Made by a program: the position numbers and the translations under genes
Shown here: piece after piece, positions 3,968 through 41,893 of the stretch
Layout of the letters: every line of letters starts with the position of its first letter
Numbering within the stretch: position 1 is the stretch's first letter
Notes under the pieces: model-generated
The model's database searches: none
The model's input: the letters and a program-made list of their open reading frames with translations, nothing else
Told to the model about the DNA's origin: nothing
Assembly (NCBI RefSeq): GCF_004010195.1
Contig: NC_057756.1
Location: 5,135,852-5,180,040, forward strand
Origin: Chiloscyllium plagiosum
Lineage: Eukaryota
DNA: 44,189 nucleotides
Direction: 5' to 3'

Positions 3968-4965
3968 GGGCGGCACGGTGGCTCAGTGGTTAGCACTGCT
4001 GCCTCACACCACCAGGGACCCAGGTTCGGGTCCAGCCTCGGGCGACTGTCTGTGTGGAGTTTGCACATTCTCCTCATGTCTGTGTGGGTTTCCTCCGGGT
4101 GCTCTGGTTTCCTCACACAGTCCAAAGATGTGCAGGTTAGGGTGGATTGGCCATGCTAAACTGTCCCATAGTGCCTAGGGATGCGTAGGTTAAGGTGGAC
4201 TGGCCATGCTAAATTGTCCCATAGTGTCCAGGGATGTGCAGGTTAGGGTGGATTGGCCGTGCTAAATTGTCCCATAACCTTCAGGGATGTGCAGGCTAGG
4301 GTGGATTGGCCATGCCAAATTGTCCCATAGCGTCCAGTGATGTGCTGGTTAGGGTGGATTGGCCGTGCTAAATTGTCCCATAGTGTCCAGGGATGTGTAG
4401 ATTAGGGTGGATTGGCTGTGCTAAATTGTCCCATAGTGTTTAGGGATGTGTAGGTTAGGGTGGATTGGCCATGCTAAATTGTCCCATAGTGTTCAGGGAT
4501 GTGCAGGTTAGGGTGTATTGGCTGTGCTAAATTGTCCCATTGTGTCCAGGGATGTGTAGATTAGGGTGGATTGGCCATGCTAAATTGTCCCATTGTGTTC
4601 AGGGATGTGCTGGTTAGGGTGGATTGGCTGTGCTAAATTGTCCCATAGCCTTCAGGGATGTATAGATTAGGGTGGATTGGCCGTGCTAAATTGTCCCATA
4701 GCCTTCAAGGGATGTGTAGGTTAGTGTGGATTGGCCGTGCTAAATTGTCCCATCGTGTTCAGGGATGTGTAGGTTAGGGTGGATTGGCCATGCTAAATTG
4801 TCCCATCGTGTTCAGGGATGTGTAGGTTAGATACATTAGTTAGGAGAAATGTAGAGTAATAGGGTAGGAGAATGGGTTACTCTTCAGAGAGGTGCTTTGG
4901 ATTTGTTGGGCCAAAGGGCCTGTTTCCACATGGTAGGGATTCTATGATATTCTATGGATTCTATG
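3968..4965 (+). mobile_element. HE1 SINE with internal 53-bp tandem array (~4127-4830, about 13 units)
   Basis: tRNA head, repeated gggatgtgcaggttagggtggattggccatgctaaattgtcccatagtgtcca unit, then SINE tail. Confidence 0.9.
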
Positions 4966-6855: not shown

Positions 6856-6908
6856 GGGAAAAGGTGGATCCCAACAAAAGAATAGCAAATCAGCTTCGTC
6901 TGGAAGTG
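6856..6908 (+). CDS. Internal 53-bp exon (phase 2 to 1) of a putative ITIM/ITSM-bearing receptor tail: GKGGSQQKNSKSASSGS(G)
   Basis: Unique sequence with acceptor ...atttatatag and donor GTG/gtaagt. The frame is open and phase-compatible with the exon at 10940. Confidence 0.65.
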
Positions 6909-7399
6909 GTAAGTGAGCTAGTTCAGCACTCATCACCCTGCTATGCTCGCGCAATTCTCATTGAGTGAAGTGTTTTAATTACTTTACTCAATCAGTGTTA
7001 ATTATAGCTTCTTTGCTCTGCCTTGGCATCTAAATAATAGAAGCGAATGTGTTAAGTGTATCATCGCTTTGCAATAAACCGTTTTCATTCCACAACCGCG
7101 TAAACATAAAGTTTGACGTCAGCTTATGCCAAATCTGGCAAAGGCATATGTTCCGCTCAAAGCTTTTCTGTGTCCTTCAATGCAACCCAATTCATCACCA
7201 AAACAATGTGCAGTGGTTGGAAGATCACATCCTTGCATCCAAGGTCAGTATGCTTGAGTCAAAGTGATTGTTCTCATTATCTTCCCTCCTGTGTTTTTGA
7301 AATTTAATGTGACTGCCATCAAGCACAGACGCTACTCTCCATAACCCACCGCCGAAGTATGAACTGATAGTGAAAAGGCATCAAAACTGTTGAGTTGAA

Positions 7400-8458
7400 G
7401 GGTTCGATTCTAGCCTCGGATGACTGTCTGTGTGGGGTTTGCAGTGTGAGTTTCCTCCGCGTGCCCTGGGTTCTTCCCACAGTCCAAAGGTTTGCAGTTC
7501 AGGGTGGATTGGCCATGCTACATTGTCCCACAGTGTCCAGGGTTGTGCAGGTTAGGGTGGATCGGCCAAGCTAAATTGTCCCATAGTGTCCAGGGTTGTG
7601 CAGGTTAGGGTGGATCGGCCAAGCTAAATTGTCCCATAGTGCCCAGGGACACGTATTTTGGGTGGATTGGCCATGCTAAATTGTCCCATAGTGTCCAGGG
7701 GATGTGCAGGTTAGGGTGGATTGGCCCATAGTCCCCAGGGATGTGCAGGTTAAGGTGGACTGGTTGTGCTAAATTGTCCCATAGCCTTCAGGGATGTGTA
7801 GATTAGGGTGGATTGGCCATGCTAAATTGTCCCATAGTGTCCAGAGATGTGCTGGTTAGGGTGGATTGGCCATGCTAGATTGTCCCATAGCCTTCAGGGA
7901 TGTGTAGATTAAGGGGGGTTGGCCATGCTAAATTGTCCCATCGTGTTCAGGGAAGTGCAGGTTAGGGTGGATTGGCCATGCTAACTTGTCCCATAGTGCC
8001 CAGGGATGTGCAGGTTAGGGTGGATTTGCCATGCTAGATTGTCCCATAGTGTCCTGGGATGTGCAGGTTAGGGTGGATTGGCCATGCTAAATTGTCCCAT
8101 AGTGTGCATGGATGTGTAGGTTAGAGTGAATTGGCCATGCTAAGTTGTCCCATAGTGTCCAGGGATGTGCAGATTAGGGTGGATTAGCCATGCTAAATTG
8201 TCCCATCGTGTTCAGGGATGTGCAGGTTAGGGTGGATTGGCCATGCTAAATTGTCCCATAGTGCCCAGGGATGTGCAGGTTAGGGTGGATTGGCCATACT
8301 AAATTCTCCCATAGTGTCCAGAGATGTGCAAATTAGGTGCATTAGTCAGGGGGAAATGTACAGTGGAATGGGAGTGGTTGGGTTACTTTTCGGAGGGTTG
8401 GTGAAGGTTTGTTGGGCCAAAGGGCCTGTGTCCACACTATCGGGATGCTATGATTCTC
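7400..8458 (+). mobile_element. HE1 SINE with internal 53-bp tandem array (~7487-8335, about 16 units)
   Basis: Same unit with diverged copies. 5'-truncated head and SINE tail present. Confidence 0.9.
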
Positions 8459-8464
8459 TTCAAA

Positions 8465-9225
8465 GGGGATGTTCGCTGATGAATGCATAATGTTCAGCGC
8501 CATTCGTTACTCCTCAGATACTGAAGCAGTCCATGGGCAAATGCAAAAAGATCTGGGCAATATCCAGGCTTGGGTTGGAAAGGGGCAAGAAACATTTGTG
8601 GCACACAAGTGCCAGGCTTTGGGCATCCTCACTTTGAGACAATCTAACATTTCCCTTTGTCATTCCATGGTGTGTGAATTCCATTGACCAGAAACTGAGC
8701 TGGATTTGCCATATAACTGCAATGACCAAAAGAACAGGTCAGAAGCTAACAATATTGTCGTGAGTACCTCACCTCCTGACTCCTCAAAGCCTGTCTAACC
8801 TTGACAAGGCACAAGTCAGGAGTGTGAGGGAATACTCCCCACTTGTCCTGGATGGGGGCAGCTCCAACAACACTCAAGAATCTCGACCCCATCCCGGGAC
8901 AAAGCAGCCCCCGCTTGATTGGCACCATATCCATCTCTCCCCTCTCAATGCTCAGTAGCAGCAGTGTGTGCCATCTACAAGATGCACTGCAGAAATTCAC
9001 CGAAGATCCTCAGACAGCACCTCAGACGTGACCATTTCCATTGAGAAGGACAAGGGCAGTAGATACATGGGAATACCAGCAACTGCAAGTTCCCCGCCGA
9101 GCCACTGACCATCCTGACTTGGAAATATATCGCCGTTCCTTCAGCGTTGCTGAGTCAAAATCATGAAACGCCTTCCTGAAAGGCAATGTACCTACAGCAC
9201 ATGGACTACAGCGGTCCCAGATCTA
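8465..9225 (+). mobile_element. Degenerate CR1/L2-group LINE, 3' part of RT (second LINE family)
   Basis: MFADECIMFSAIRYSSDTEAVHGQMQKDLGNIQAW (YADD-equivalent region). Related pieces at 11740-12030 (+), 17200-17572 (-) and 17985-18270 (-). Confidence 0.75.
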
Positions 9226-9975
9226 ACTGATAACCCTGTCAGTGTAATCTTTCACTCACTCAGGATTAATTCGCAATTAGCATTACTCAACCCAACATTA
9301 TGCTATTTCGAGTCATAGAGCCATACAGCATGGAAACAGACCCTTCGGCCCAACCCGTCCGTGCTGACCAAGCTTCTGAAGCTAAACTAGTCCTATTTGC
9401 CTCTGTTTTCACCCATATCCCAGTAAACCTTTTCTTTCCACGTACCTGTCAAAATGTCTTTTAAATATTGGAGCTGTATTTACATTGACCACTACCTCTG
9501 GCTGATCGTTTCACATATGAATGTGTGAAAAAGTTGCCCTCAGGTTCCTTTTAAATTTCTTTCCTCTCACCTTAAACATATGCTCTCTAGCTTTGAAACT
9601 CCCTTACCCTCGGGAAAAGACATCTGCCCTTCATCTTATCTATGCCCTTTATGATTATATAAACCTTTATACGGTCACCTCTCGGTCTCCTGCGCTCCAG
9701 TGAGAAAAGGTCCCAACCTATCCAATCTCTCTTCGTATTTCAAACAGCCTGGCAAATTGTTTCTGCACCTTCTCCCATTTAATAATACTCTCGCTGACCA
9801 GAATTGTACACAGTACTCCAAAAGTGATCTCACCAACATCCTGTACAGAAGAGAAAAATAACCGATAACTCAATACTGGAGCATTTTCCCTTGTTTTATT
9901 TTAGCATTTTCTGACAATACGTTTCTTTTAGAATTTTCTTAACAAGAAGTACCAACCAGTGATGAAGATATCTTG

Positions 9976-10475
9976 NNNNNNNNNNNNNNNNNNNNNNNNN
10001 NNNNNNNNNNNNNNNNNNNNNNNNNNNNNNNNNNNNNNNNNNNNNNNNNNNNNNNNNNNNNNNNNNNNNNNNNNNNNNNNNNNNNNNNNNNNNNNNNNNN
10101 NNNNNNNNNNNNNNNNNNNNNNNNNNNNNNNNNNNNNNNNNNNNNNNNNNNNNNNNNNNNNNNNNNNNNNNNNNNNNNNNNNNNNNNNNNNNNNNNNNNN
10201 NNNNNNNNNNNNNNNNNNNNNNNNNNNNNNNNNNNNNNNNNNNNNNNNNNNNNNNNNNNNNNNNNNNNNNNNNNNNNNNNNNNNNNNNNNNNNNNNNNNN
10301 NNNNNNNNNNNNNNNNNNNNNNNNNNNNNNNNNNNNNNNNNNNNNNNNNNNNNNNNNNNNNNNNNNNNNNNNNNNNNNNNNNNNNNNNNNNNNNNNNNNN
10401 NNNNNNNNNNNNNNNNNNNNNNNNNNNNNNNNNNNNNNNNNNNNNNNNNNNNNNNNNNNNNNNNNNNNNNNNNNN
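9976..10475. other. Assembly gap (500 N); other gaps at 15441-15892 and 23873-23982
   Basis: Runs of N. Confidence 1.
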
Positions 10476-10939
10476 TGGCTGAGTTGACTACATTAGCAGG
10501 CAGGGCATTCCACACCCTTCCCACTCTCTGCGTAAAGAACCTGCCTCTGACACCTGTCTTAAATCTATCACCCCTCAATTTGCAGTTATGCCCCCTCGTA
10601 CAAGCTGACGTCATTATCTTAGGAGAAAGACTCTCACGGTGTACCCTATTTAGCATGGCCAATTCACCCTGACCTGCACATCTTTGGACTGTGGGAGGAA
10701 ACCGGAGCACCCGGAGGAAACCCACGCAGGCACGGGGAGAGTGTGCAAACTCCACACAGACAGTTGTCCAAGGCTGGAATCGAACCCAGGTCCCGAGAGG
10801 CTGCAGTGCTAACCACTGAGCCACCGTGCCACCCAAATTTCTCAAGGGCAAGTTCTTGTTAGGAGATTTTTTTAAAAATAAGGGCACAGTCTTATTGGAA
10901 AGCTTGCAGAGTAACAAGATCTAAATCTTGATTTTACAG

Positions 10940-10983
10940 GACCAGCGGCATCTAGCAATGGGACCAATCCAGAAAACATGAAG
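10940..10983 (+). CDS. Internal 44-bp exon (phase 1 to 0): (G)PAASSNGTNPENMK
   Basis: Acceptor ...cttgattttacag and donor AAG/gtaaaa. Joins the 53-bp exon to the terminal exon without a stop codon. Confidence 0.7.
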
Positions 10984-11206
10984 GTAAAAGAAACATTGTC
11001 TCTCACTTTTTATTGTTAATTTGTTTGGAGGTTTGAGCAATTTAAACTGCATCAGCATTGACTTTTCACTGACTGCATTTTTAACGTAAAGGATATTATA
11101 TAATCTACATGGATCCGTCAATTCCCTTTCATCAGTGAAGTGGTGGAAGACGTCAATAATACTATCAAACATCACCCGCTCAGCAATAACCTGCTCAGTG
11201 ACGCTC

Positions 11207-11660
11207 AGAATCCCTACAGTGTGGAAACAGGCCCTTCAGCCCAACAAGTCCACACCGGCCCTCCGAGGACTAACCCACCCAGACCCATTCCGCTACACAT
11301 TATCTTATATTTATCCCTGACCAATGCACCTCATTTACACATCACTACGGGCAATTTAGATTAATTAGATTAGATTCCTACAGTGTGGAAACAGGCCCTT
11401 CGGCCCAACAAGTCCACACCGACCCTCCGAAGAGTAACCCAACCACACCCATTCCGTTACACTATTATCCAATATTTACCCCTAACCATGCACCTCGTTT
11501 ACACATCACTATGGGCAATTTAGATTAGATTAGATTGGATTCCCTACAGTGTGGAAACAGGCCCTTCGGCCCAACAAGTCCACACCGATCCTCCGTAGAG
11601 CAACTCACCCAGATACCCAGCTTGGCTAATTCACCTAACCTGAACATCCTTGGATTGTGG
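11207..11660 (-). mobile_element. Three tandem HE1 SINE 3' tails
   Basis: cctacagtgtggaaacaggcccttc...gcccaacaagtccacacc occurs at ~11213, 11377 and 11543. Confidence 0.8.
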
Positions 11661-12064
11661 GTTCCACCGAGACCACTCAGCTCCTGACCCCATTACAGCC
11701 TTGGATCGAAATGGCCAAAAGAGCCGAATTCCAGAGGGGAGATGTGAGTGACAGACCTTCACATCATGGCTGCATTCGACTGAGCGTGGCATCGAGGTGC
11801 CCGAGCAATGCTGGAATCAATGGGCGTGAGGGGGGGGGAATCTCTCCTCTGGTTACAGACATACCTGGCATGGAGAAAGATGGCCCTGGTTGTTGGAGGT
11901 CAGTCATCTCAGCTCCAGGGTATCTGCGCAGGAACTCCTCAGGGTAGTGTCCTCAGCCCAACCATTGGCATGGTGGGCCTACCTCCAGCACTGTGGAGGT
12001 TCAAGAAGGCAGCTCGACTCCACCTCAGCTACTGTGTCCATTGCTCTCGATGTGGTCTCGGCAA

Positions 12065-13057
12065 CATCCCTGGGCACTATGGGACAATTTAGCACGGCCA
12101 ATCCACCCTAACCTGCACATCCCTGGGCACTATGGGACAATTTAGCACGGCCAATCCACCCTAACCTGCACATCCCTGGGCACTATGGGACAATTTAGCA
12201 CGGCCAATCCACCCTAACCTGCACATCCCTGGGCACTATGGGACAATTTAGCACGGCCAATCCACCCTAACCTGCACATCCCTGGGCACTATGGGACAAT
12301 TTAGCACGGCCAATCCACCCTAACCTGCACATCCCTGGGCACTATGGGACAATTTAGCACGGCCAATCCACCCTAACCTGCACATCCCTGGGCACTATGG
12401 GACAATTTAGCACGGCCAATCCACCCTAACCTGCACATCCCTGGGCACTATGGGACAATTTAGCACGGCCAATCCACCCTAACCTGCACATCCCTGGGCA
12501 CTATGGGACAATTTAGCACGGCCAATCCACCCTAACCTGCACATCCCTGGGCACTATGGGACAATTTAGCACGGCCAATCCACCCTAACCTGCACATCCC
12601 TGGGCACTATGGGACAATTTAGCACGGCCAATCCACCCTAACCTGCACATCCCTGGGCACTATGGGACAATTTAGCATGGCCAATCCACCCTAACCTGTA
12701 CATCCCTGGGCACTATGGGGCAATTTAGCACGGCCAATCCACCCTAACCTGCACATCCCTGGGCACTATGGGACAATTTAGCATGGCCAATCCACCCTAA
12801 CCTGCACATCCCTGGGCACTATGGGACAATTTAGCACGGCCAATCCACCCTAACCTGCACATCCCTGGGCACTATGGGACAATTTAGCATGGCCAGTGCA
12901 CCCTAATCTACACATTCTTGGACTGTGGGAGGAAACCGGAGCACCCGGAGGAAACCCACACAGAAACGGGGAGAAGGTGCAAAATCCGCACAGACAGTCG
13001 CCCCGAGGCTGGAATTGAACCCGGGTCCCTGGTGCTGTGAGGCAGCAGTGCTAACCC
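12065..13057 (-). mobile_element. HE1 SINE head (12913-13057) with 16 x 53-bp tandem array (12065-12912), tail missing
   Basis: Exact period of 53 with no indels. The first 11 units appear identical. Confidence 0.9.
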
Positions 13058-13984
13058 CTGCACCACCTCTAATATCAAGTTGCATGTCAATCGATCTCGA
13101 TATCAATCCAGTAAACAACCTCTGATCTAACGCCAATGCTTTTGGCTCCCTCTTTAGATTAGGAGACCAAAGCCACACACAGTACTCCCAGATGTGGTCT
13201 ATCTAATACCCTTTCGAACTAAAGCAGAACCTCTCTTACTTGTATGTTCAACTCCTTACGTCCCAAAGTCTGCCGTGCTCTGGAAGGGGCCTCCCTGAGC
13301 ACTTTTGTTCCCTGTGGTTTATATGCCTATGATTTGTACTTCCCCACTGTCAAGCAGGACCATTGAAGCCTTACTTATTGCTGAGCAGCAGCAGAGGGTA
13401 AAGCCGATGTCGTCTCCTCCACCATTGTTTCAGACAGTGGAAATGAGTAAGGAGCTCCAACTCAGAGGAGGTAGCGACCCCGGCTCAGGTTACAGGGCAC
13501 AGTATCAATTTTCTCAACACCAGGTGACCCAGGGACGCTCAGAATCGCACACCAGGACAGAGCTGTCAACTTCTCTGAAGCGGATGTGGCAGCAGGTCAA
13601 ACTCACAACAGCCCTGAATTCCTCCAGCTCTACATGCTGACAGAGATTTGATGGTGGCATCTGTAGCTCTCTCTGTATGCCCACAATCGTGACCCTTGAC
13701 CTTGTGACAGCCACCATTTCTGCCCACGTTGCTCCAGATGAAGCCAATCAGAATGGGGTGCCTTTGCGTCAACGAGCTAATGAATTTCTTGCAAGTTAAT
13801 GTGGAAGCACTAGTTTAAGGCTGTGTAAGTTCAGGAACTACAGGTCTGTTGAAAAAAACGCATTCCATGAATCTGATTGAGGAACACTGAAATGAAAACG
13901 GGAATCGCTGAACAGATTCTGTAGAAATGCTGTGTTTATCATTGTCAGATCAGGCACAGTTTATTGAAACTTTTCCCTCATTGG

Positions 13985-14937
13985 AGGTCTAGTTGACAGT
14001 GAAGAAGGTTACCTCAGAGTACAATAGGACCTTGATCAGATAGGCCAATGAGCCAAAGAGTGGCAGAGGGAATTTAATTTAGATAAATTTGAGGTGCTGC
14101 ATTTTGGAAAGGCAAGTCAGGGCAGGACTTATATACTTAATGGTCAGGTCCTGGGGAGTGTTGCTGAACAAAAAGACCTTGGAGTGTAGGTCCATAGATC
14201 CTTGAAAGTGGAGTTGTAGGGAGGTAGGTTAGTGAAGAAGGCATTTAGTATGTTTCCCTTTCTTAGTTAGACCATCAAGTATAGGATTTGAGAGGTAATA
14301 TTGAGGCTGTACAGGACATTGGTTAGGTCACTTTTGGAATATTGTGTGAAAGACTGGTCTCCTGTTATCGGAAGGATGTTGTGAAACTTGAAAGGGAATA
14401 CTGTGTGCAATTCTGATCTCCCTGCTATAGAAAGGATGTTGTGAAACTTGAAAGGGTTCAGAAAAGATTTACAAGGATGTTGCCAGGGTTGGAGGATTTG
14501 AGCTGTGGGGAGAGGCAGAGCAGGCTGGGGCTGTTTTCCTTGGAGCGTCGGAGGCTGAGGGGTGACCATATAGAGGTTTACAAAATTATTGAGGGGCATG
14601 GATAGGATAAATAGGCAAAGTCTTTTCCCCGGGGTCGGGGAGTCCAGAACTAGAGGTTTAGGGTGAGAGGGGAAAGATATAAAAGAGACCTATGGGGCAA
14701 CCTTTTCACACAGAGGGTGGTGCATGTATGGAATGAGCTGCCAGAGGATGTGGTGGAGGCTGGTACAATTGCAACATTTAAGAGGCATTTGGCTGGGTAT
14801 ATGAATAGGAAGGGGTTTGGAGGGATATGGGCCAGGCATTGGTGGGTGGGACTAGATTGGGATGGGATATCTGGCCGGCATGGACAGGTTGGACCGAAGG
14901 GTCTGTTTCCATGCTGTACATCCTAATGACTCTATGA
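13985..14937 (+). mobile_element. CR1 (HER1-like) LINE 3' fragment
   Basis: Reads ...RGERYKRDLWGNLFTQRVVHVWNELPEDVVEAGT... and ends in the tail ctaatgactctatga. Confidence 0.9.
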
Positions 14938-15280
14938 CAGGGAGGAGGGAGAATCACATGCTTTTGATCAAGATTGGGGATGTGGGTCTGAAGTCACATG
15001 TAGGCCAGACCAGGTAAGGATGGCAGATTTCCTTCTCCCAAGGATATTTGTGACCCATATGGGTTTTCATGACGATTCCCAATGGTTTTGTAGAAATCGG
15101 AATCTTAAGTCCAGATTTTTTATTGCTTTCCAGCTACCCAGAATGTTAACTGACTGCAAAGGCTGAAACCCAATCTCAGCTACAGGCCATTTCCAGCTGA
15201 AATTCACTGGTACACTGGGCAGTTATTCCTGGGTGTGGCTTCCAAGTCGTGACCAAAATTGCCTCTCGCAACATTGAGCT

Positions 15281-15362
15281 ACACACACACACACACACAT
15301 ACACACAACACAGAGATACACACACAGACACACACACTCACACAATCTCTGTCTCAGACACC

Positions 15363-15405
<43 letters not shown>

Positions 15406-16232
15406 ACATGGACACACGGACACACATGCGGGTGCACACANNNNNNNNNNNNNNNNNNNNNNNNNNNNNNNNNNNNNNNNNNNNNNNNNNNNNNNNNNNN
15501 NNNNNNNNNNNNNNNNNNNNNNNNNNNNNNNNNNNNNNNNNNNNNNNNNNNNNNNNNNNNNNNNNNNNNNNNNNNNNNNNNNNNNNNNNNNNNNNNNNNN
15601 NNNNNNNNNNNNNNNNNNNNNNNNNNNNNNNNNNNNNNNNNNNNNNNNNNNNNNNNNNNNNNNNNNNNNNNNNNNNNNNNNNNNNNNNNNNNNNNNNNNN
15701 NNNNNNNNNNNNNNNNNNNNNNNNNNNNNNNNNNNNNNNNNNNNNNNNNNNNNNNNNNNNNNNNNNNNNNNNNNNNNNNNNNNNNNNNNNNNNNNNNNNN
15801 NNNNNNNNNNNNNNNNNNNNNNNNNNNNNNNNNNNNNNNNNNNNNNNNNNNNNNNNNNNNNNNNNNNNNNNNNNNNNNNNNNNNNNNNNNNNACATACAG
15901 ATGTACACACACATGGACGCACGCAAACACAAAGACACACATGACAGAGAGAGACACATGTGCACACAGACACATACATGCAGTCACACACACAAGGACA
16001 CACACACACGACAGATAAAGAGAGACAAACACATAAACACACTCACACACACACACAAGGACACACACATGACAGACACAGTGAGAGAGACAGGCACACA
16101 CATGGACACACACACGCAAGGACACACACACACACGGACACACATACACAAGGACACACACAAAGACAACAGACACACACGACAGATAGACCAAGACAGA
16201 CAGCCACATACAGTACACACACACACACACTC
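15281..16232. repeat. Compound (CA)n/(CT)n/(GA)n microsatellite spanning an N gap
   Basis: Direct reading. It produces the spurious HT- and CV-rich ORFs. Confidence 0.95.
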
Positions 16233-16239
16233 ACTTACT

Positions 16240-17200
16240 TATTTGGATGTGAACATAGGAGGTATAGTTAGTAAGTTTGTAGATGGCTCCAAAATTGCTG
16301 ATGTAGTGGACAGCAAAGAAGATTACTTTAGAGAACAACAGGACCTTGACCAGATGGGCCAATGAGCTGAGGAGTGGCAGATGGAGTTTAATTCAGATAA
16401 ATGTGAGGTGCTGCACTTTGGAAAGGCAAATCAGGGCAGGACTTATGTACTTAATGGTGAGGTCCTGGGGGATGTTGCTGAACAAAGAGTCCTTGGAGTG
16501 CAGGTTCATAGTTCCTTGAAAGTGGTGTCGCAGGTAGACAGGATAGTGAAGAAGGTTTTATTGGTCAGAGCATTGAGTACAGGGGTTGGGAGGTGCTGCT
16601 GCTGCTTTTCAGGACATTGGTTTGGCCACTATTGGAATATTGTGTCCAATTCTGGTCACCGTGCTATAGGAAGGACGTTGTGAAACTTGAAAAGATTCAG
16701 AAAAGATTTCCAAGGATGTTGCCAGGGTTGGAGTGTTTGAGTTAGAGGGAGAGGCTGAATATTAGATTAGATTACATTAGATTACATTACAGTGTGGAAA
16801 CAGGCCCTTCGGCCCAACAAGTCCACACCGACCCGCCGAAGCGAAACCCACCCATACCCCTACATTTACCCCTTACCTAACACTAGGTAAGTGAATCCCA
16901 TGATCTTGACCCAGTAACACTGAAGGAACGGCGATCCCCCGACATTTATCCCTTCACCTAACACTACGGGCAATTTAGCATGGCCAATTCACCCAACCTG
17001 CACATTTTTTGGACAGTGGGAGGAAACCGGAGCACCCGGAGGAAACCCACGCAGACACGGGGAGAATGTGCGAACTCCACACAGTCAGTCGCCTGATTCG
17101 GGCTATTTTCCCTGGAGCACTGGAAGCTGAGAGGTGGCCTTATAGAGGTTTATAAAATCATGAGGGGAATAGAAAGGGTAAATAGACAAGGTCTTTTTGA
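16240..17200 (+). mobile_element. CR1 LINE fragment interrupted by an HE1 SINE (16762-17100)
   Basis: SKFVDGSKI (FADDTK-like) and MEFNSDKCEVLHFG. Confidence 0.85.
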
Positions 17201-17572
17201 AGGTGGGGGTGAGCTACCTCCTTGAACCACTGTCGTCCATGTGCTAAAGGTAAGCCCACAATGCACTGAGGGAGTGAATCCCATGATCTTGACCCAGTAA
17301 CACTGAAGGAACGGCGATTGGTTTCCCATTCAGGATGGCGAGTGGCTTGGAGGGGAATTTGCAGGGGCTGGTGTTCCCACATAACTGCTGTCCTTGTCCT
17401 TTGAGATGGAAGTGGCCTAGATGGAAGGTGCTGTCTCAGGATTCTGATGAGTATTTTGTAGATGGTACACACCGCTGCTACTGAGAGTCAGTGGGGGAAG
17501 GAGCAGATGTTTGTGGATGTGGTGCCAATCAAGTGGGGGCTGCTTTGTCCCTGGATGGTGTCGAGCTTCCTG

Positions 17573-17985
17573 AGTCATAGAGATGTATGGTACAGAAACA
17601 GACCCTTCGGTCCAACTCGTCCATGCCGACCAGATATCCCAATCTAATCCAGTCCCATTTGCCAGCATCCAGCCCACATCCCTCTAAACCCTTCCTATTC
17701 ATATACCCATCCAGATGCCTTTTAAATGCTGTAATTGTACCAACCTCCACCACTTCCTCTGGCAGCTCATTCCATACACACACCACCCTCTGTGTGAAAA
17801 TATTGCCCCTTAGGTCCATTTTATATCTTTCCCCTCTCACCCTAAACCTATGCCCTCTAGTTCTGGACTCCCCCACCCTAGGGAAAAGATCTTATCTATT
17901 TACCCTATCCATGCCCCTCATGATTCTATAAACCTTGATGAGGTCACCCCCTCAGCCTTCAGTGCTCCAGGGAAAACAGCCCCAG
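17573..17985 (-). mobile_element. CR1 LINE 3' end
   Basis: RTRGHRFRVRGERY...FTQRVVCVWNELPEEVV. Similar minus-strand copies at 9310-9850, 10476-10648, 28565-28885, 32725-33245, 33733-34190, 34505-34960 and 38533-38880. Confidence 0.9.
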
Positions 17986-18287
17986 TGTTGTTGGAACTGC
18001 CCCCATCCAGGGCAAGTGGCGAGTATTCCATCACACTCCTGACTTGTGCCTTATAAACAGCGGAGAGGCTTTGGGGAGTCACAAGGTGAGTTACTTACTA
18101 CAGGATTCCCAGCTTCTGACCTGCTCATGTAGCCACTGTGTTGATATGATGAGGTCCAGTTCATTTTTTTTAGTGGGGATTAGGTGATGGTATTGACATT
18201 GAACACCATGGGTTGATGGTCAGGCTAGCTGTTATTGGGGATGGTCATTTCCTGGCATTTGTGTGGTGGAAAGTGTTTATATTATTG

Positions 18288-18820
18288 TATAAGATCTATG
18301 AATACTGGTATAAGACCAATGAGTACTGGTATAAGACCAATGAATACTGGTATAAGAACATTGAGTACTGGTATAAGAACATTGAGTACTGGTATAATAC
18401 CTATGAATATTAGTATAAGACTGATGAATATGAGTATATGTACAAGATGAATATATACGTATACTGAAAAAGATGCCCAAGATTATTTTGTAAAATGTTC
18501 AAGATCCATATATCAATGCATAAAATGCACAGCACCTACATCTTAGTGCTTAAGACACACAAGACCTATATAATAGTGTATAAGACATATAAGATCTATG
18601 TATTATTTTGAAAGATGCACAAGATCTATATATTATTGATTAAAATATCCAGTGTAAGATCTACAAGACCTATGTATTAGCATACAAGATGTAACACATT
18701 TAAGTGTTTATATAATACATATAATCATATATAAGATGTATTAGGCCTATATATTCATATATAAGATGCACAAGACCTGTACATTGCTGTATAAGGTGGA
18801 CTGGACTATATATATCAGTG
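18288..18820. repeat. AT-rich minisatellite: 21-bp unit (tataagaccaatgagtactgg) decaying into looser units of about 30 bp
   Basis: About seven clear 21-mers at 18288-18434. The tataaga/caagac motif keeps recurring to ~18820. Confidence 0.85.
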
Positions 18821-18898
18821 TTAGCGATGCTTGAGAAGATTGTAGCTCAGGTTAATGATCAGTCTGTAAGTTAGCTCGCTGAGCTGCAATGTTTGTTT

Positions 18899-18939
18899 TC
18901 AGACGTTTCGTCACTGTGACTCGGTACCATCATCAGTGA
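18899..18939 (-). ncRNA. Minimal hammerhead ribozyme motif (PLE-type family C)
   Basis: Minus strand reads tca-CTGATGA-tggtaccgagtcacagtgac-GAAAC-GTC-tga. tca/tga closes helix I. Confidence 0.55.
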
Positions 18940-19029
18940 GAGTCACATATACCTATGTATTAGAGTGTAAGATATTCAATGAATAAGTATTCTGACTGTG
19001 CAATCATTTCTTTTTTTGTTTTATTTCAG

Positions 19030-19146
19030 ACATCAGGGACAGATGTTGTTTATTCCCAACCGAACATTAACCCTTTGCACGCAACAGCTCCACCTGAACT
19101 GACTGATAGCAATAAGACTGCCTATGCCGAACTGAAGTTCACATGA
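19030..19146 (+). CDS. Terminal coding exon (phase 0) of an Ig-superfamily-type inhibitory receptor, CEACAM1-like: TSGTDVVYSQPNINPLHATAPPELTDSNKTAYAELKFT*
   Basis: Strong polypyrimidine acceptor (tttctttttttgttttatttcag) with a ctgac branch-like site near 18992. Two Tyr motifs (VVYSQP, TAYAEL) 24 residues apart. TGA at 19144-19146. Confidence 0.8.
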   Translation, partial: TSGTDVVYSQPNINPLHATAPPELTDSNKTAYAELKFT

Positions 19147-19589
19147 GTTTGTATTTGAAGGAAAGAGTGTATATAATTATAATCACTTATCCACCTTAAA
19201 CGTAATACAGATGCTTGGATGTATGCTGAGACTTTCAGTGTCCAGCTTCTCAAGAACAAAAGCTAACAGACTTTTACAAAAGGAAGGCATCCAGCAAATT
19301 TAGTTTTCTATTTTTTTTAAGAAAATGATTCCCCTAAAGGGACAGAATTATTAAGTAATAGTTACTGCAAGTCTGCGTCATAAACTCAGGCTTAAATTGT
19401 TGGATGGAGAAAACCAATGAATCAATTCTTTCCTTCCAAAGTGCTAGGCCCGCAACAGTAAACACAAATATCTATTTTCTTAGCTAATATCACGCCGTCA
19501 AATTTATAACCCAAAGTAAACGACACCTACAATATACAGCATTGAAGTTGACCTTTCTGATGAATATGCCGTTGCCCTTCTCTGGCTGG

Positions 19590-20070
19590 CTTAGATTAGA
19601 TTCCCTACAGTATAGAAACAGGTCCTCCAACTCAAACTGACCCTCCCAAGTGTAACCCACCCAGACCCATTCGCCTACCCCCTGACTAATACACATAACA
19701 CTATGGGACAATTTAGCATGACCAATTGACCTGACCTGCACATTAGATTAGATTAGATTAGATTAGATTAGATTAGATTACTTACAGTGTGGAAACAGGC
19801 CCTTCGACCCAACAAGTCCACACCGACCCGCATCCCATCCCCCGACATTTATCCCTTCACCTAACACTACGGGCAATTTAGCATGGCCAATTCACTCAAC
19901 CTGCACATTTTTTGGACAGTGGGAGGAAACCGGAGCACCCGGAGGAAACCCACACAGACACGGGGAGAATGTGCGAACTCCACACAGTCAGTCGCCTGAG
20001 GCGGGAATTGAACCCGGGTCTCTGGCGCTGTGAGGCAGCAGTGCTAACCACTGAGCCACCATGCCACCCA
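19590..20070 (-). mobile_element. HE1 SINE fragment plus a full HE1 SINE with (attag)n tail, downstream of the stop codon
   Basis: tRNA head at 20000-20070 and (attag)n at 19742-19780. Further HE1 copies lie at 10650-10835, 16762-17100, 33551-33730, 40326-40510 and 42578-42880. Confidence 0.85.
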
Positions 20071-20694
20071 AGTCATTGGAGTTGACCTTTCTGGAGGGTA
20101 TGCCATTGCCCGTCTCTGGCTGATTCTTCCAGGTTTATGTCAAATGCCCATGAGGGGATTGAACTGATCCAGAAACAAGCAACCTTCACGGTCCCTTAAG
20201 ACTGCAAACAGATTAAAATGTTGAGGCATCTGACTTAATTGCTGTTGACGGGCAAAGTTGAATGGAGGGAGGGGAGGAGGGATGATGCTGAAGGGAATCT
20301 AAGATTGCCGGCATTTATACCAATAGAAAGCCATTTTTTCTTTCCATAAACATGATCAGGCTTTCCCTTATCGCACTTACTCTTCCCAAAACGGAGGCGT
20401 GTGAGCAAGCTTTCTGAAACATGATGCGCTCAAGCCGTTTCACGGTGGGTTCTCAGGCCCTGAGATTTCTGATGGGGTTGCTACAGTTTGTCAAGGAAGC
20501 ATATGAAGGGCCCGGGTGTCAGAGTTCTGGCCTGGAGTCGAGAGTGAAGTAATTGCCTCCGTCCCCCGTTTTCCGTTCGCCGATCGCACGCGGTATCGCA
20601 ACTCTGCCGCGACCACGTCCCTGCTTCTGCGAGGTGGGAGTGTCTACTTGACAGCTCCTGGTTGGGAAGCAATGCTTCCAATTAATAAAGGGGG

Positions 20695-22134: not shown

Positions 22135-22625
22135 ATAGAATCCCTACAGGCCCTTTGGCCCAACAAGCCGACACTGAACCTCTGACGAGTAACCCCACCC
22201 AGACCCATTCCCCTATCTATTTCTCTACATTAACCCCTGACTAATGCACCTAATCTACACATCCCTGGACACTATGGGACAATTTAGCACGGCCATTCCA
22301 CCCTAACCTACACATCCCTGGGCACTATGGGACAATTTGGCACGGCCAATCCACACTAACCTGCACATCCCTGGATACGATGAGCAATTTAGCATGGCCA
22401 ATCCACCCAAACCTATGCATCCCTGGATAATATGGGCGATTTAACTTGGCTAATCTACCTAATTTACACATCTTTGGATTGTGGGAGTAAACCTGAGCAC
22501 CCAGATGAAACCCACGCAGACACAGGAAGAATGTGCAAACTCCACACAGACAGTCACCCGAGGCTGGAATCGAACCCGGGTCCCTGGCGCTGTGAGGCAG
22601 CAGTGCTAACCACTGAGCCACCGTA
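22135..22625 (-). mobile_element. HE1 SINE with a short 53-bp array (about 4 units)
   Basis: Head at 22560-22625, units at 22255-22470, tail at 22135-22255. Confidence 0.85.
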
Positions 22626-23649: not shown

Positions 23650-24447
23650 GAAGGAGAAAGTGAGGTCTGCAGATGCTGGAGATCAGAGCTGAAAAATGTC
23701 TTGCTGGAAAAGCGCAGCAGGTCAGGCAGCATCCAAGGAGCACGAGAATCGACGTTTCAGGCATAAGCCCTTCTTCAGGAATGAGGAAGGTGTGCCAAGC
23801 AGGCTAAGGTAAAAGGTAGGGGGGAGGGGCGTTGGGAATGCGATAGGTGGAAGGAGGTTAAGGTGAGGGTGANNNNNNNNNNNNNNNNNNNNNNNNNNNN
23901 NNNNNNNNNNNNNNNNNNNNNNNNNNNNNNNNNNNNNNNNNNNNNNNNNNNNNNNNNNNNNNNNNNNNNNNNNNNNNNNNNNAGTATAGAGGAGGCCACA
24001 TTGGGTGCAGCAGATGCAGTAAATGATGTGTGTGGAGGTGCAGGTGAATTTGTGACGGATATGGAAGTGTCCCTTGGGGCCTTGGAGGGAAGTAAGGGGG
24101 GAGGTGTGGGCGCAAGTTTTGCATTTCTTGCGGTTGCAGGGGAAGGTGCCGGAAGTGGAGATTGGGTTGGTGGGGGGTGTGGACCTGACGAGGGAGTCGC
24201 GGAGGGCGTGGTCTTTCCAGAATGCTGATAGGGGAGGGAAGGGAATCCGGAATGCTCACCGTAACCTCCTTCCACCTATCGCATTCCCAACGCCCCTCCC
24301 CCAAGTCCCTCCTCCCTACCTTTTATCTTAGCCTGCTGGGCACACCTTCCTCATTCCTGAAGAAGGGCTTATGCCCGAAACGTCGATTCTCCTGCTCCTT
24401 GGATGCTGCCTGACCTGCTGCGCTTTTCCAGCGACACATTTTTCAGC
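23650..24447 (-). mobile_element. Penelope-like element (family A) 3' fragment: GIY-YIG endonuclease region plus inverted pseudo-LTR copies
   Basis: Minus frame 24240 to 23983 reads FPPLSAFWKDHALRDSLVRS...GTFPCNRKKCKTCAH...FTCTSTHIIYCICCTQCGLLYT, then an N gap. Arms ~23690-23865 and ~24255-24447 are inverted copies of each other. Confidence 0.85.
24353..24388 (+). ncRNA. Minimal type I hammerhead ribozyme motif (PLE family A)
   Basis: attc-CTGAAGA-a-GGGC-ttat-GCCC-GAAAC-GTC-gatt. Predicted cleavage after 24384. Confidence 0.6.
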
Positions 24448-35982: not shown

Positions 35983-36756
35983 AGGGCAGCAAGTTGGCTC
36001 AGTGGTTAGCCCTGCTGCCTCACAGGGCCAGAGGAGTTTGCACGTTCTCCCCATGGAGGCACAGGTTTCCCTCGGATGCTGTGGTTTCTTTCTGCAGTCC
36101 AAATATGTGCAGGTTAGGGTGGATTGGCCATGATATATTGTCCCATAGTGCTCAGGGATGTGCAGGTTAGGGTGGATTGGCCATGCTATATTGTCCCATA
36201 GTGCTCAGGGATGTGCAGGTTAGGGTGGATTGGCCATGCTATATTGTCCCATAGTGCTCAGGGATGTGCAGGTTAGGGTGGATTGGCCGTGCTAAATTGT
36301 CCCATAGTGTCCAGGGATGTGAGGGTTAGGGTGAATTGGCCATGCTAAATTGTCCCATAGTGTCCAGGGATGTGCAGGTTAGGGTGGATTGGCCGTGCTA
36401 TATTGTCCCATAGTGCTCAGGGATGTGCAGGTTAGGGTGGATTGGCCAAGCTAAATTGTCCCATAGTGCCCAGGGATGTGCAGGTTAGGGTGGATTGGCC
36501 ATGCTAAATTGTCCCATAGTGTCCAGGGATATGCAGGTTAGGGTGGATTGGCCATGCTAAATTGTCCTTTCGTGCACAGGGATGTGCAGGTTAGGGTGGA
36601 TTGCCCATGCTAAATTGTCCCACAGTGTTCAGGGATGTGCAGGTTGGGTGCATCATTCAAGAGAAATGTAGGGGAATGGGTGGGTTACTCTTCAGAGGGT
36701 CAGTGTGGACTTGTTGGGCCAAATGACCTGTTTCCACACTGTAGGCATTCTATGAA
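35983..36756 (+). mobile_element. HE1 SINE with internal 53-bp tandem array (~36105-36645, about 10 units)
   Basis: Degenerate head, repeated unit and SINE tail. Confidence 0.9.
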
Positions 36757-37962: not shown

Positions 37963-39374
37963 AGACTAAATTGCCCCATAGTGTTCAGGGATGTCTAGGA
38001 TGGGTGCATTAGTCAGGGTTAAATGTAATGCAATAGGGTAGGGGAATGGCTCTGGGTGGGATACTCTTTGAAGGGTCAGTGCGAACTAGTTGGGCCAAAT
38101 GGCCTGTCTCCACACTGTCGGGATTCTATTCTGTCGTTTCATTTTAAGGAGATCTTCAGGCTGCCGTACACCTCAGAAGGAAGCTGAAGGGTCGGTTTTG
38201 TCTTTGATGTCCTGGAAAGACAGGGTCTTATTTTTTTCAGAAATTGTTTTAAAAACCAAGCTTTGCTGCCCATTTGGAACCCAATTCACCCATAATTCCC
38301 ATGCTTTTCTGCTCCGTCGCATATCTTTGAAGTTAATGAGGGGAGCAGAGTCAAATTATATGCCAAAAGTCATCATTTACCTGGAGTCCAATTGCTTGCA
38401 ATAAATGGTAATTTTTATTCAGTGCAAGCACCTGGGCATGTGCTTTCTCTCAAACTGAGGGTAAAAGAGACTGAGTGTGAATGGAGAGCAAAATACTGTA
38501 CACATTCATAAAATCTTTAACTTTTCATTGTAGTCATAGAATCATAGAAATGTACAGCACAGAAATGGACCCTTCAGTCCAACTCGTCCATGCCGACCAG
38601 ATATCCGAAATTAATCAAGTCCTATTTACCAGCACTTAGCCCAGATCCCTCAAACCCCTTCCTATTCATATTCCCATCCAGATGCCTTTTAAATGTTGCA
38701 ATTGTACCAGCCTCCACCACTTCCTCTGGCAGCTCATTCCATACATGTACCACCTTCTTTCTATCTTTCCCCTCTCACCCTAAATCTATGCCCTCTAGTT
38801 TGCCCACCCTAGGGGAAAAGATCTTGCCTATTTACTCTATGCATGCCCCTCCTGATTTTATAAACCTCTGCAAGGTCACGTTAACAGAGTCTGGGAATAA
38901 GGGGGCTTAATATTATTCCAGTTCCACCGATGACACACCTCGGCACTACCTTTGTGATCCTTCTGGGAACCAGCCATCGCAGGAATGCTGATGCCCTGCC
39001 TGATGGAACGTAACTTTCACAGTTCTCACTGAGAGAGTGATTAGAAGGCGTGCAATGAACTGCTGTTTAGGTAAAAGCCCGACACACAGGGGAGAGAAGG
39101 ATACGTTGTGTTGAAAGAGTCCCACTTGCATCTGAAGCCCCACAGCGGTGACATACATAAACAGATCGGTTTGTTTTTTTTTAAACTGATGGTGGCAGAG
39201 AGATAAACATTGACAGGCCAACAGGGAGAATGGCTGTACAACGGCACCATGGGAATTTTGGCATCTGCCTGAGACAGCAGACTGGGCCTCCCTTTACAAT
39301 CTCGCTCGTAAGGCAAGCATGTCAACATTGGACGCACTCTGTCTTGGAGTCAGACAGCACAGAAACAGACCCAA

Positions 39375-41893
39375 CGATGTCTCCTCTTCCTCGGGCAGCT
39401 GAGGAAATTTGGCATGACGCGAATATCCTCGCCAACTGTTATAGGTGTGCCATCGAGAGCATTCTGTCTGGATGTATCACTACCTGGTATGGCAACTGTA
39501 CCATTCAAGATCGGAGATGGTTACAGAGAGTGGTGAATTCGGCCCAGACGATCACAAAGGCCAACCTCCCATCTATAGAATCCACCTACCAGGCCCACTC
39601 AGAGCACACGCAGATCAACTGGCAGAGGTTTTCTCGAACATCTTCAACCTCTCCCTACAGCAGGCCCTGCTCGTGCCTGTTTCAAGAGGGCCAACATCGT
39701 CCCTGTGCCTAAAAAGTCTCATGCAGCATGTCTCAATGACGACCGCCCAGTGACCCTAACTTCGGTGGTCATGAAGTGCTTTGAAAGGCTGGTCATGGCA
39801 TTAATCAACTCCAGCCTCCCCACTACTCTTGACCCACTCCAATTTGCCTATTGGACCAATAGATCCACGTCAGATGCCATATCACTTGCCCTTCACTCCT
39901 CCCTAGAACATCTTGACACCAACAACAGCTACGTAAGAATCCTACTCATTGACTACAGTTCAACACTATTATCCCCTCGAGAATGATTACTAAACTTAGT
40001 GATCTCGGTTTCGAGTTAGGATTAGAGTTATGGTTGGGGCTAGGGTTAGTGTTCAGGTTTTGTTTGTTTTAGGGTTAGGGTTCAGATCAGGTTTATTATC
40101 CGAGTTAAGGTTAGGGTTTGGGTTTGGGTTAGGTTTAGGGTTAGTGTTAGGGTTTGGGTTAGGGTAGGGATTCGGATGCAAACGCAGAAAGTGTGGTCCA
40201 TTTTGTTTGGAGTGTTTATGTGAAATAGGGTTAGTTTTAAGTTCAGTGTTTGGGTTAGCGATAGGGTTAGGGTTAGCTTTAGGGTTAGTGTCAGGTTTAG
40301 AGTTGTGGCTAGTGAAAGGTTTAGGGTGATTTCCTCCCACAGTCCAAAAATGTGCAGGTCAGGTGATTTGGCCATGCTAAATCGCCCATAGTGTTAGGTG
40401 CAGGGGTAAATGTAAGGGAATGGGTCTGGGTGGGTGTGCTTTGGTGGGTCGGTGGGTCAGTGTGGACTTGTTGGGCCGAAGGGCCTGTTTCCACACTGTA
40501 AGTAATCTAAGGTCAGAGCTAGGGTTTGGGTTAGAGTTGGGACCTAGAGTTCGGCCAGGGTCAGGGTTTAGGTTTGGGTTAGGGTTAGGGTTCCATTTAG
40601 GTTTTGAGATAGGGTTAGGGTTAGTGATGGGTGAAGGTTATGTTGAGGGTTAGGGTTAGGGTTTGAGTTAAGGTTGGGTTCAGTTACAAACCAAGAAACT
40701 GTGGTTTGTAGTGTCATATCAGTTGCCCTTCACTCCTCCCTAGAACATCTTGACACCAAGAACAGCTACGTCAGAATCCCACTAATTGACTACAGTTCAG
40801 CCTTCAACACTATCTTCCCTCGAGACTGATTACTAAACTTGGTGATCTCGGACTAAGCCCCACTCTCTGCAATTGGATCCACAGTTTCCTGACCCACAGG
40901 CCAAAATCAGCGAAGATTGGGCACAATATTTCCCCCTCACTAACACTCAACACTGGAGCCCCCCCAGGGGGTTGTGTACTCAGCCCCCTACTGTGCTCAC
41001 TGTATACCCATGACTGTGTCACCAAATACCAGACTGATGCCATTTACAAAGTCACTGTTGACACCACCATAGTCGGTCGAATCTCAGATGGCGATGAAAC
41101 AGACTACATATGGGAGGTGGAAGACCTGCAAAATGGTGCACTGAGAACAACCTAGCTCTCAACGTCGGCAAAACCAAGGAACTCATTATTGGCTTTTGGC
41201 GGGATGTTACTCCTGCCCCCCCCCCTACACATTACCAGCACAGAGGTGGAACGAATGGAGAGGGTCAAGCTCCTGGGAGTGGTCACCCACAACAAGCTTT
41301 CTTGGGCTCTTCATGTGGACGCACTGGTTACAAAGGCCCAACAACGTCTCTTTTTCCTCAGGCAGCTGAGGAAATTTGGCATAACGGTCAACTTTTGTCA
41401 ACTTTTATAGGTGCCCCATTGAGAGCATCCTGCCTGGATGTATCACTACCTGGTACGGCAACTGTACCATTCAAGATCGGAGACGGTTACAGAGTGTGGT
41501 GAACTCGGCCCGGACGATCACAAAGGCCAACCTCCCATCTATAGGATCCATCTACAAGGCCCGCTGTCAGGGAAAGGCCGCCGGCATCCTCAAAGCTCCA
41601 TCCCACCCTGGTAATGTTTTTCTACACCCTCTACCATCGGGGAGAAGGTACAGAAACCTGAACACACACACCAGCCGGTTTCAAAACAGTTTCTACCCAC
41701 TTGTTGTTAGAATACTGAACGGACTCACAAACTCTTAACATTCGCCTGGACCTGTGTTTTTGTGTTTGCCGCTGTTTCCCTATTATTTACTATCTATGCT
41801 CATTAACTCGGTGATCTGCCTGTATTGCTCACAGGACAAAGCTTTCCACTGTGCCTCGGAACACGTGGCAATCAATTCAATTCAATTCAATTC
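39375..41893 (+). mobile_element. Rearranged Rex1/Babar-clade LINE RT fragments ending in a (caatt)n tail
   Basis: [22 protein letters not shown]...LDPLQFAY...[28 protein letters not shown] and KAQQRLFFLRQLRKFG. Confidence 0.85.
40009..40685 (+). repeat. Degenerate telomere-like (TTAGGG)n tracts (40009-40327 and 40511-40685) flanking an HE1 fragment
   Basis: Hexamer periodicity with many exact TTAGGG plus TTTGGG, TTAGTG and TTAGAG variants. Confidence 0.8.

What the first reader, a model, noticed from the sequence alone, without database searches (positions are those of the whole stretch)
6856..19146. Hidden inhibitory receptor tail with CEACAM1-like exon architecture
Seen: three small exons missed by the ORF track (53 bp phase 2-1; 44 bp phase 1-0; terminal phase 0) splice in frame to ...GKGGSQQKNSKSASSGSGPAASSNGTNPENMKTSGTDVVYSQPNINPLHATAPPELTDSNKTAYAELKFT*. 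Recalled knowledge: the human CEACAM1 cytoplasmic exons are a 53-bp phase 2-1 exon 7, a short phase 1-0 exon 8 ending ..SNDPPNK, and a phase-0 last exon carrying both ITIMs. Inference: this is a cartilaginous-fish CEACAM1-like (or convergent) SHP-recruiting receptor whose Ig and transmembrane exons lie upstream of the window.
Basis: partly seen in the sequence, partly recalled or inferred. Interest (0 to 1): 0.72.

Follow-up and report, generated by a model that had tools for sequence, protein, structure and literature searches.

The report
Shark CEACAM1-type receptor, altered tail
These three small exons are the real inner end of an already annotated shark cell-adhesion receptor of the CEACAM family; it keeps the on/off splicing switch known from human CEACAM1, but one of the two usual inhibitory docking sites is replaced by a different, conserved motif.

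Summary
Observation confirmed. The three exons translate to exactly the last 70 residues of RefSeq XP_043539135.1 (Chiloscyllium plagiosum 'CEACAM5-like', 944 aa), so the gene is not hidden from public annotation. Transcript-like contigs start at the last acceptor. The ectodomain is CEACAM (best PDB hit CEA, E 1e-100). (1) Skipping the 53-nt exon gives a stop in the next exon; matching short isoforms are modelled in 5 of 5 shark long/short pairs tested, the CEACAM1-L/S switch. (2) The tail does not carry two ITIMs: the proximal tyrosine is YxxP in 8 of 8 elasmobranch species and the distal one is TxYA(E)(L/V)x(F/Y), a good SHP-2 C-SH2 fit. ITAM-like paralogues with near-identical N domains exist (93/100, 96/101). 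CEACAMs in cartilaginous fish are known; I found no paper on these tails or isoforms. Synteny and binding are untested. The scan's notes showed no earlier finding of this.

The parts
6856..6908 (+). Cytoplasmic exon 1 (Cyt1), 53 nt, phase 2-1; the skippable exon of the long/short switch
   Evidence: AG/GT ends; encodes residues 875-891 of P0005; 12 of 20 pyrimidines before the acceptor against 18 of 20 for the last exon
10940..10983 (+). Cytoplasmic exon 2 (Cyt2), 44 nt, phase 1-0 in the long form; read in the shifted frame in the short form
   Evidence: AG/GT ends; tblastn of orthologues hits 10936-10995; shifted frame gives the same four last residues as the C. punctatum short isoform P0006
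10953..10955 (+). TAG stop used when Cyt1 is skipped (short isoform); 28 nt before the last exon junction
19030..19146 (+). Cytoplasmic exon 3 (Cyt3), phase 0, 38 codons plus TGA
   Evidence: contigs of X1, X5 and X7 begin at 19027-19028
19045..19062 (+). Proximal tyrosine motif VVYSQP (YxxP), at the place of the first ITIM of sauropsid CEACAM1
   Evidence: Pro at pY+3 in 8 of 8 elasmobranch species; aligns with the sauropsid ITIM column
19117..19140 (+). Distal tyrosine motif TAYAELKF, ITSM-like, tyrosine seventh from the end
   Evidence: fits the SHP-2 C-SH2 pattern tested in 8 of 8 species (pattern from PMC12151841)
19147..19730 (+). 3' untranslated region, minimum extent; true end not found
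   Evidence: the X1 contig runs unbroken from 19028 to the end of the stretch laid, 19730; AATAAA candidates at 20684, 21047, 21064 untested

Best explanation
This is the 3' end of the elasmobranch CEACAM1-type gene. The protein is a type I membrane receptor: signal peptide, one IgV-like N domain, eight IgC-type units in A/B pairs (one degenerate), one TM helix and a disordered tail (shown for the annotated protein). It most likely works like CEACAM1. N-domain engagement clusters the receptor and Src-family kinases phosphorylate the tail (inferred from mammalian CEACAM1). The distal motif recruits SHP-2 or SHP-1 and damps nearby activating signals (inferred from motif fit). The proximal tyrosine has Pro at pY+3, so it is probably not a second SHP site; SHP-2 would then be activated by bridging two receptor tails, as in the dimer model for PD-1, and the YxxP site is free for a Crk/CrkL-type adaptor (inferred, about even odds). 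Including or skipping the 53-nt exon switches between this signalling long form and a tyrosine-free short form (shown as gene models in five other sharks; inferred for this species). ITAM-like paralogues with similar N domains make it the non-activating member of a paired-receptor set (inferred).
For: Exact 70-residue match to XP_043539135.1. C. punctatum orthologue P0003 against PDB: CEA E 1.1e-100, CEACAM1 1.4e-57, best non-CEACAM (titin) 1.1e-30. N domain alone: the five best hits are CEA/CEACAM1 chains; no cysteine in it. Long and short isoforms differ by 66 residues in 5 of 5 pairs, are identical up to the splice point, and the short end can share DNA with the long tail at 1 of 65 offsets only, the one a 53-nt skip gives. 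The same switch is described for human (53-nt exon 7; PMC2490704), dog (PMC2110893) and rattlesnake (PMC13278318). Last tyrosine seventh from the end in 9 of 9 elasmobranch, 6 of 6 sauropsid and 2 of 2 catfish rows. Distal motif has T(-2), A(+1), L/V(+3), aromatic(+5), the SHP-2 C-SH2 preferences given in PMC12151841. 22 of 51 elasmobranch records carry an ITAM-like YxxL-x7-YxxL tail; 14 of 51 carry the YxxP type (records include isoforms). N domains group by lineage, not tail type; great white shark pair 93/100 against 80/100 to the basking shark orthologue, Mustelus pair 96/101.
Against: No binding, phosphorylation or expression data by cell type. The short isoform rests on RefSeq models; no short model of this species was among the records seen and I read no skip junction. 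Tail homology to sauropsid CEACAM1 is weak by profile comparison (probability 35%, pairwise E 4e-4), below the match to elasmobranch ITAM-like tails, which lay in the juxtamembrane part (80%). For the N domain alone JAM-A scores close behind (E 3.4e-5 against 4.9e-6). Leu at pY+3 is less favoured than Ile by C-SH2 according to one study cited in PMC12151841. In the bamboo-shark group N-domain homogenisation is modest (72/99 in Hemiscyllium). Synteny could not be tested (no genome held).
Confidence: 0.72

Rival explanations
1. It is an ordinary two-site CEACAM1: the YxxP tyrosine still serves as the weak second SHP site, and the Pro is a tolerated lineage variant.
For: The motif keeps V at pY-2, S/A/T at +1 and a hydrophobic residue at +5 in 8 of 8 species, and the 24-residue spacing to the distal tyrosine is fixed. 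PMC2832619 notes mammalian motifs that fit neither consensus. PMC12151841 describes the PD-1 ITIM as a weak helper of the ITSM.
Against: Both SHP-2 SH2 consensus patterns want I/V/L at pY+3. Pro is invariant in 8 of 8 species while neighbouring residues vary, which looks selected. The stingray orthologue carries an extra ITSM in a 19-residue insert, as if a second SHP site had been gained anew.
Confidence: 0.2
2. The short forms are low-level splicing noise captured by annotation, and the shared 53-nt length is a family trait with no conserved switch.
For: Any frameshifting skip soon meets a stop. The shark stop is TAG, while PMC2110893 gives TGA for mammals. The five short forms are automatic models; an ITAM-like catshark paralogue shows a similar skip of 56 nt.
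Against: The same skip with the stop at the same codon is modelled in five species of three shark orders. The stop lies 28 nt before the last junction, inside the distance that escapes nonsense-mediated decay (50-55-nt rule, recalled). The acceptor of the 53-nt exon is pyrimidine-poor.
Confidence: 0.15
3. It belongs to another Ig family (CD2/SLAM, JAM, SIRP, Siglec, PECAM, PZR) and resembles CEACAM1 by convergence.
For: JAM-A and CD2 appear among hits of the N domain. A weak Pfam match to the 2B4 model (E 3e-4) lies on the N domain of P0003. Whole-chain Foldseek ranks DSCAM first.
Against: CEA and CEACAM1 lead the sequence search by 70 and 27 orders of magnitude over the best non-CEACAM. No SIRP, Siglec V-domain, PECAM or PZR chain is among the 60 rows shown of 159 (a CD22 d6-d7 fragment scores 2e-11). 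Nearly all named hits among the 84 are CEACAM/PSG-like. The Foldseek order reflects chain length on a model with pTM 0.36. The 53-nt long/short switch is the CEACAM one.
Confidence: 0.04

Closest known systems
CEACAM1 of mammals and sauropsids (CEACAM1-L and CEACAM1-S)
   Same: IgV-like N domain, A/B IgC domains, TM, three cytoplasmic exons, 53-nt first exon whose skip ends the frame in the second exon, two tyrosines in the last exon, long tail of similar size (72-74 aa in PMC2490704; about 80 here).
   Different: Proximal motif is YxxP, not an ITIM; distal motif is TxYxxL, neither strict ITIM nor strict ITSM; no TEHKxS motif (0 of 8); eight IgC units against 3-4 in most mammals; short-form stop TAG against TGA.
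RefSeq 'CEACAM5-like' models of sharks (XP_043539135.1, XP_072409538.1/9.1, XP_060708511.1-13.1, XP_041032665.1-68.1)
   Same: The window's exons are the end of XP_043539135.1; the others are orthologous long and short isoforms.
   Different: The names are automatic and misleading: human CEACAM5 is GPI-anchored (PMC2832619), while these have a TM helix and a signalling tail.
Xenopus group 1 paired Ceacams (PMC5112662)
   Same: One inhibitory-type member with ITAM-like paralogues sharing N domains; the paper says group 1 N domains are closest to those of cartilaginous and bony fish.
   Different: The frog inhibitory members are described with ITIM/ITSM. Their tail alignment is in a supplement that I could not read, so whether YxxP occurs there is open.
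PD-1 (dimer model of SHP-2 activation)
   Same: One strong ITSM-type site can activate SHP-2 by bridging two receptors (PMC12151841).
   Different: Unrelated ectodomain family; only a mechanistic analogy.

Membership tests
CEACAM family | Single N-terminal IgV-like N domain (lack of the disulfide is recalled as typical) | tested here: met
   Pfam V-set on orthologues; no Cys in residues 23-122 of P0005; five best PDB hits are CEA/CEACAM1 chains, with JAM-A close
CEACAM family | IgC2 domains of A and B type after the N domain | tested here: met
   P0003 against CEA E 1.1e-100 with three matched stretches; seven folded IgC units and one unfolded unit in the model of P0005
CEACAM family | Syntenic position (LIPE, BCL3, ATP1A3, CNFN neighbourhood) | not testable with these tools
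   No genome held; no neighbouring gene recognised in the window by reading
CEACAM family | Conserved intron phases of the Ig exons | not testable with these tools
   Ig and TM exons lie outside the window
CEACAM1 | [quoted passage not shown] | tested here: met
CEACAM1 | 53-nt first cytoplasmic exon; skipping gives a stop in the second | tested here: met
   53 nt and TAG at 10953-10955; 5 of 5 long/short pairs. Not exclusive to CEACAM1 (dog CEACAM25)
CEACAM1 | ITIM plus ITIM or ITSM in the last exon | tested here: not met
   Strict ITIM 0 of 8 species; strict ITSM 0 of 7 sharks, present in the stingray
CEACAM1 | TEHKxS motif in the first cytoplasmic exon (described for mammals) | tested here: not met
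   0 of 8
CEACAM1 | One-to-one orthology with tetrapod CEACAM1 | tested here: inconclusive
   Tail profile match weak; sauropsid N domains were too distant to enter the tree (6 of 6 dropped)
CEACAM1 | Recruits SHP-1/SHP-2 on phosphorylation | not testable with these tools
   Motif fit only
CEACAM5 | GPI anchor, no cytoplasmic tail | tested here: not met
   TM helix and tail present
Paired CEACAM receptors | ITAM-like paralogue with a closely similar N domain in the same species | tested here: met
   93/100 in Carcharodon, 96/101 in Mustelus, 70-78% in Hemitrygon, 72/99 in Hemiscyllium; no full ITAM-like paralogue of C. plagiosum itself was seen (P0030 ends early)

The most novel reading that the evidence does not exclude
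The CEACAM1 long/short splice switch is as old as jawed vertebrates, and sharks and rays rewired the long tail: the first ITIM became a conserved YxxP site for a Crk/CrkL-type adaptor, giving a receptor that couples one phosphatase site to a cytoskeletal adaptor site, and that is shadowed by ITAM-like decoys kept similar by gene conversion, implying CEACAM-binding pathogens in elasmobranchs.
Probability: 0.3. Interest if true: 0.65.

Novelty: new variant of a known kind. Interest (0 to 1): 0.42.

Why it matters
The literature I read traces CEACAMs to cartilaginous fish only through skate ESTs (PMC3628338, PMC4079198) and gives the ancestral CEACAM1-like gene as an inference (PMC2832619, PMC13278318). 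These exons give the tail and splice design of that gene in sharks. They push the 53-nt long/short switch, known from mammals and a snake, back to the split of cartilaginous and bony fish (450-420 Ma in PMC4079198), unless it arose twice. The conserved ITIM-to-YxxP change is a natural test of whether CEACAM1-type inhibition needs two SHP sites. The gene itself is already annotated, which caps the surprise.

Tried and rejected
Search of 1.84 billion representatives with the 38-residue last exon: 0 hits at E 0.001; the query was too short, not evidence of absence. No whole genome is held, so upstream exons and synteny stayed out of reach. No listed holder of the stretch is on record as RNA. Only 18640-19730 was laid, because the introns hold long tandem arrays and gaps; the loose-end letters at the acceptor were not among the rows shown. 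The 827-nt upstream length of the two contigs does not tell long from short form. Raw single-cell RNA run X20 gave depth 1-3 over 19010-19268 on one strand and none at 18936-19009: few reads, weak support only. tblastn of 105 proteins found only exons 2 and 3 in the window, plus one chance-level match at 13416-13526; a six-frame scan found no TM exon. Whole-chain Foldseek was uninformative. In the N-domain tree 7 of 40 rows were dropped for lack of a long enough match (six sauropsid rows and Narcine), and the long-branch row annotated as VSIG10-like fell unresolved among elasmobranch rows, so the tree places nothing outside elasmobranchs. Tail profile against two catfish ITIM tails: no match (probability 1%). 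Rejected: 'unannotated gene', 'two ITIMs', 'CEACAM5 orthologue', and non-CEACAM families. Paper searches with no paper on shark CEACAM tails or isoforms in their listings; the library lacks most subscription journals. Scan notes: nothing relevant.
Full report
Observation. The window holds the three exons as described: 6856-6908 (53 nt), 10940-10983 (44 nt) and 19030-19146, each with an AG acceptor, the first two with GT donors. The rest of the window reads as SINE/LINE remnants, tandem arrays and three gaps. A search with the last exon found 3 of 3 candidates as shark Ig proteins, and their clusters held XP_043539135.1 of Chiloscyllium plagiosum (P0005, 944 aa), whose last 70 residues are identical to the spliced product. 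The C. punctatum and Hemiscyllium tails differ at several positions, so the window is from C. plagiosum or a very close form. Contigs of two runs guessed to be RNA start at 19028 and carry 827 nt that do not fit the intron; a contig from a related species starts at 19027 with five listed substitutions in the exon, none in the tyrosines, the proline or the distal motif (12 rows not shown). The junctions themselves were not read.

What the protein is. P0005 has a signal peptide, a cysteine-free IgV-like domain (23-122), eight IgC-type units, one TM helix near 845-861 and a disordered tail, with 32 N-glycosylation sequons outside the cell. The fourth IgC unit (392-474) is not folded in the model. 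The orthologue P0003 matches CEA at E 1.1e-100 and CEACAM1 at 1.4e-57; the best unrelated chain is titin at 1.1e-30. The family call is strong on sequence and untested on synteny. The database name 'CEACAM5-like' is misleading, since human CEACAM5 is GPI-linked (PMC2832619, passages).

The long/short switch. If the 53-nt exon is skipped, exon 2 is read in a shifted frame and ends at TAG 10953-10955 after four residues, the same four that end C. punctatum isoform X2. RefSeq X1/X2 pairs of C. punctatum, Hemiscyllium, Carcharodon, Cetorhinus and Mustelus all differ by 66 residues and are identical up to the splice point. In 5 of 5 pairs the short end can be encoded by the same DNA as the long tail at exactly 1 of 65 offsets, the one a 53-nt skip predicts. 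This is the CEACAM1-L/S design: human exon 7 is 53 nt and its exclusion gives a proximal stop (PMC2490704, passages; PMC11646291, passages); dog CEACAM1-4S lacks the 53-bp first cytoplasmic exon and stops in the second (PMC2110893, passages); a rattlesnake does the same (PMC13278318, passages, discussion and part of the references). A 53-nt exon entered in phase 2 must leave in phase 1, so the phases agree by arithmetic; the phase 0 of the last mammalian intron is recalled, not checked. Caveats: these are automatic models, none seen for this species; the stop codon differs from the mammalian TGA; and the 53-nt exon also occurs in an ITAM-bearing dog gene, so it marks the family rather than CEACAM1 itself.

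The tyrosines. Against nine sauropsid CEACAM1-like tails, the shark proximal motif aligns with the first ITIM and the distal one with the second, though the profile match is weak (probability 35%). The proximal motif has Pro at pY+3 in 8 of 8 elasmobranch species, seven sharks of three orders and one stingray, where 6 of 6 sauropsid rows have Leu. Strict ITIM matches are 0 of 8; strict ITSM 0 of 7 sharks, while the stingray has two, one in a 19-residue insert. The distal motif has Thr at -2, Ala at +1, Leu or Val at +3 and an aromatic residue at +5 in 8 of 8, matching the SHP-2 C-SH2 preferences summarised in PMC12151841 (passages and section 20). YxxP is described as the CrkL-binding motif of CBL (PMC4017086, passages); its use by Nck and Abl SH2 domains is recalled.

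Mechanism. Shown: exon structure, protein identity, domain layout, motif conservation, short-form models in relatives. Inferred: adhesion or ligand binding through the N domain, Src-family phosphorylation, SHP-2 or SHP-1 recruitment at the distal tyrosine (about 75%), phosphatase activation by bridging two tails as in the PD-1 dimer model, a non-SHP adaptor at the YxxP tyrosine (about 45%), and tuning of signal strength by the long-to-short ratio. The short-form stop is 28 nt before the last junction, so it should escape decay (rule recalled).

Partners. Of 51 elasmobranch CEACAM-like records, 14 have the YxxP type of tail, 22 an ITAM-like pair, 9 end without a tyrosine in their last 25 residues and 6 are other (isoforms counted separately). 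In a tree of 33 N domains (7 of 40 rows dropped) sequences group by lineage, not tail type: the great white shark pair is 93/100 identical against 80/100 for the basking shark orthologue, and the Mustelus pair 96/101. That is the signature used to call paired receptors in frogs (PMC5112662, passages). It is weaker in the bamboo-shark group (72/99), and gene conversion was not tested on DNA.

Known and new. CEACAMs in cartilaginous fish are in print from skate ESTs (PMC3628338 and PMC4079198, passages), and ITIM/ITSM-bearing fish genes are mentioned as unpublished. I also read passages of PMC8274849 and PMC8564729, which say nothing on sharks. Verdict: a real, annotated CEACAM-family gene that works like CEACAM1 but fails the two-ITIM/ITSM membership feature; I file it as a variant. 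Interest 0.42.

Noticed in passing
window 9976-10475, 15441-15892, 23873-23982: Three assembly gaps (N runs); the first two lie in the introns of this gene and could hide small exons, though the RefSeq protein needs none.
   Followed up: partly
window 4127-4830, 7482-8337, 12064-12915, 22249-22472, 36105-36650: Tandem arrays of one 53-bp unit inside SINE-like elements, up to 16 copies at 98% match. The period equals the exon length by coincidence; the sequences look unrelated by eye.
   Followed up: no
window 40104-40680: Degenerate hexamer repeats resembling telomeric GGGTTA, between reverse-transcriptase-like LINE remnants at about 39185-39986 and 40790-41738 (labels recalled).
   Followed up: no
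P0005 residues 392-474: The fourth IgC unit is degenerate, rich in N-glycosylation sites and unfolded in the model; present also in C. punctatum.
   Followed up: partly
P0025 (Hemitrygon akajei) tail: A 19-residue insert between the first two cytoplasmic exon blocks adds a strict ITSM, so the ray has two SHP-type sites around the YxxP. Probably an extra 57-nt exon; DNA not seen.
   Followed up: partly
P0013 and P0113 (Scyliorhinus canicula): An ITAM-like paralogue also has a short isoform that fits a frameshifting skip of a 56-nt first cytoplasmic exon (1 of 66 offsets).
   Followed up: partly
teleost hits: About two dozen teleost CEACAM-like proteins (counted by eye) end in a very short tail with a terminal SPY motif.
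   Followed up: no
P0002, P0008, P0004 and isoform sets: Ectodomain isoforms with different numbers of IgC units exist for the same shark genes, as for mammalian CEACAM1.
   Followed up: no
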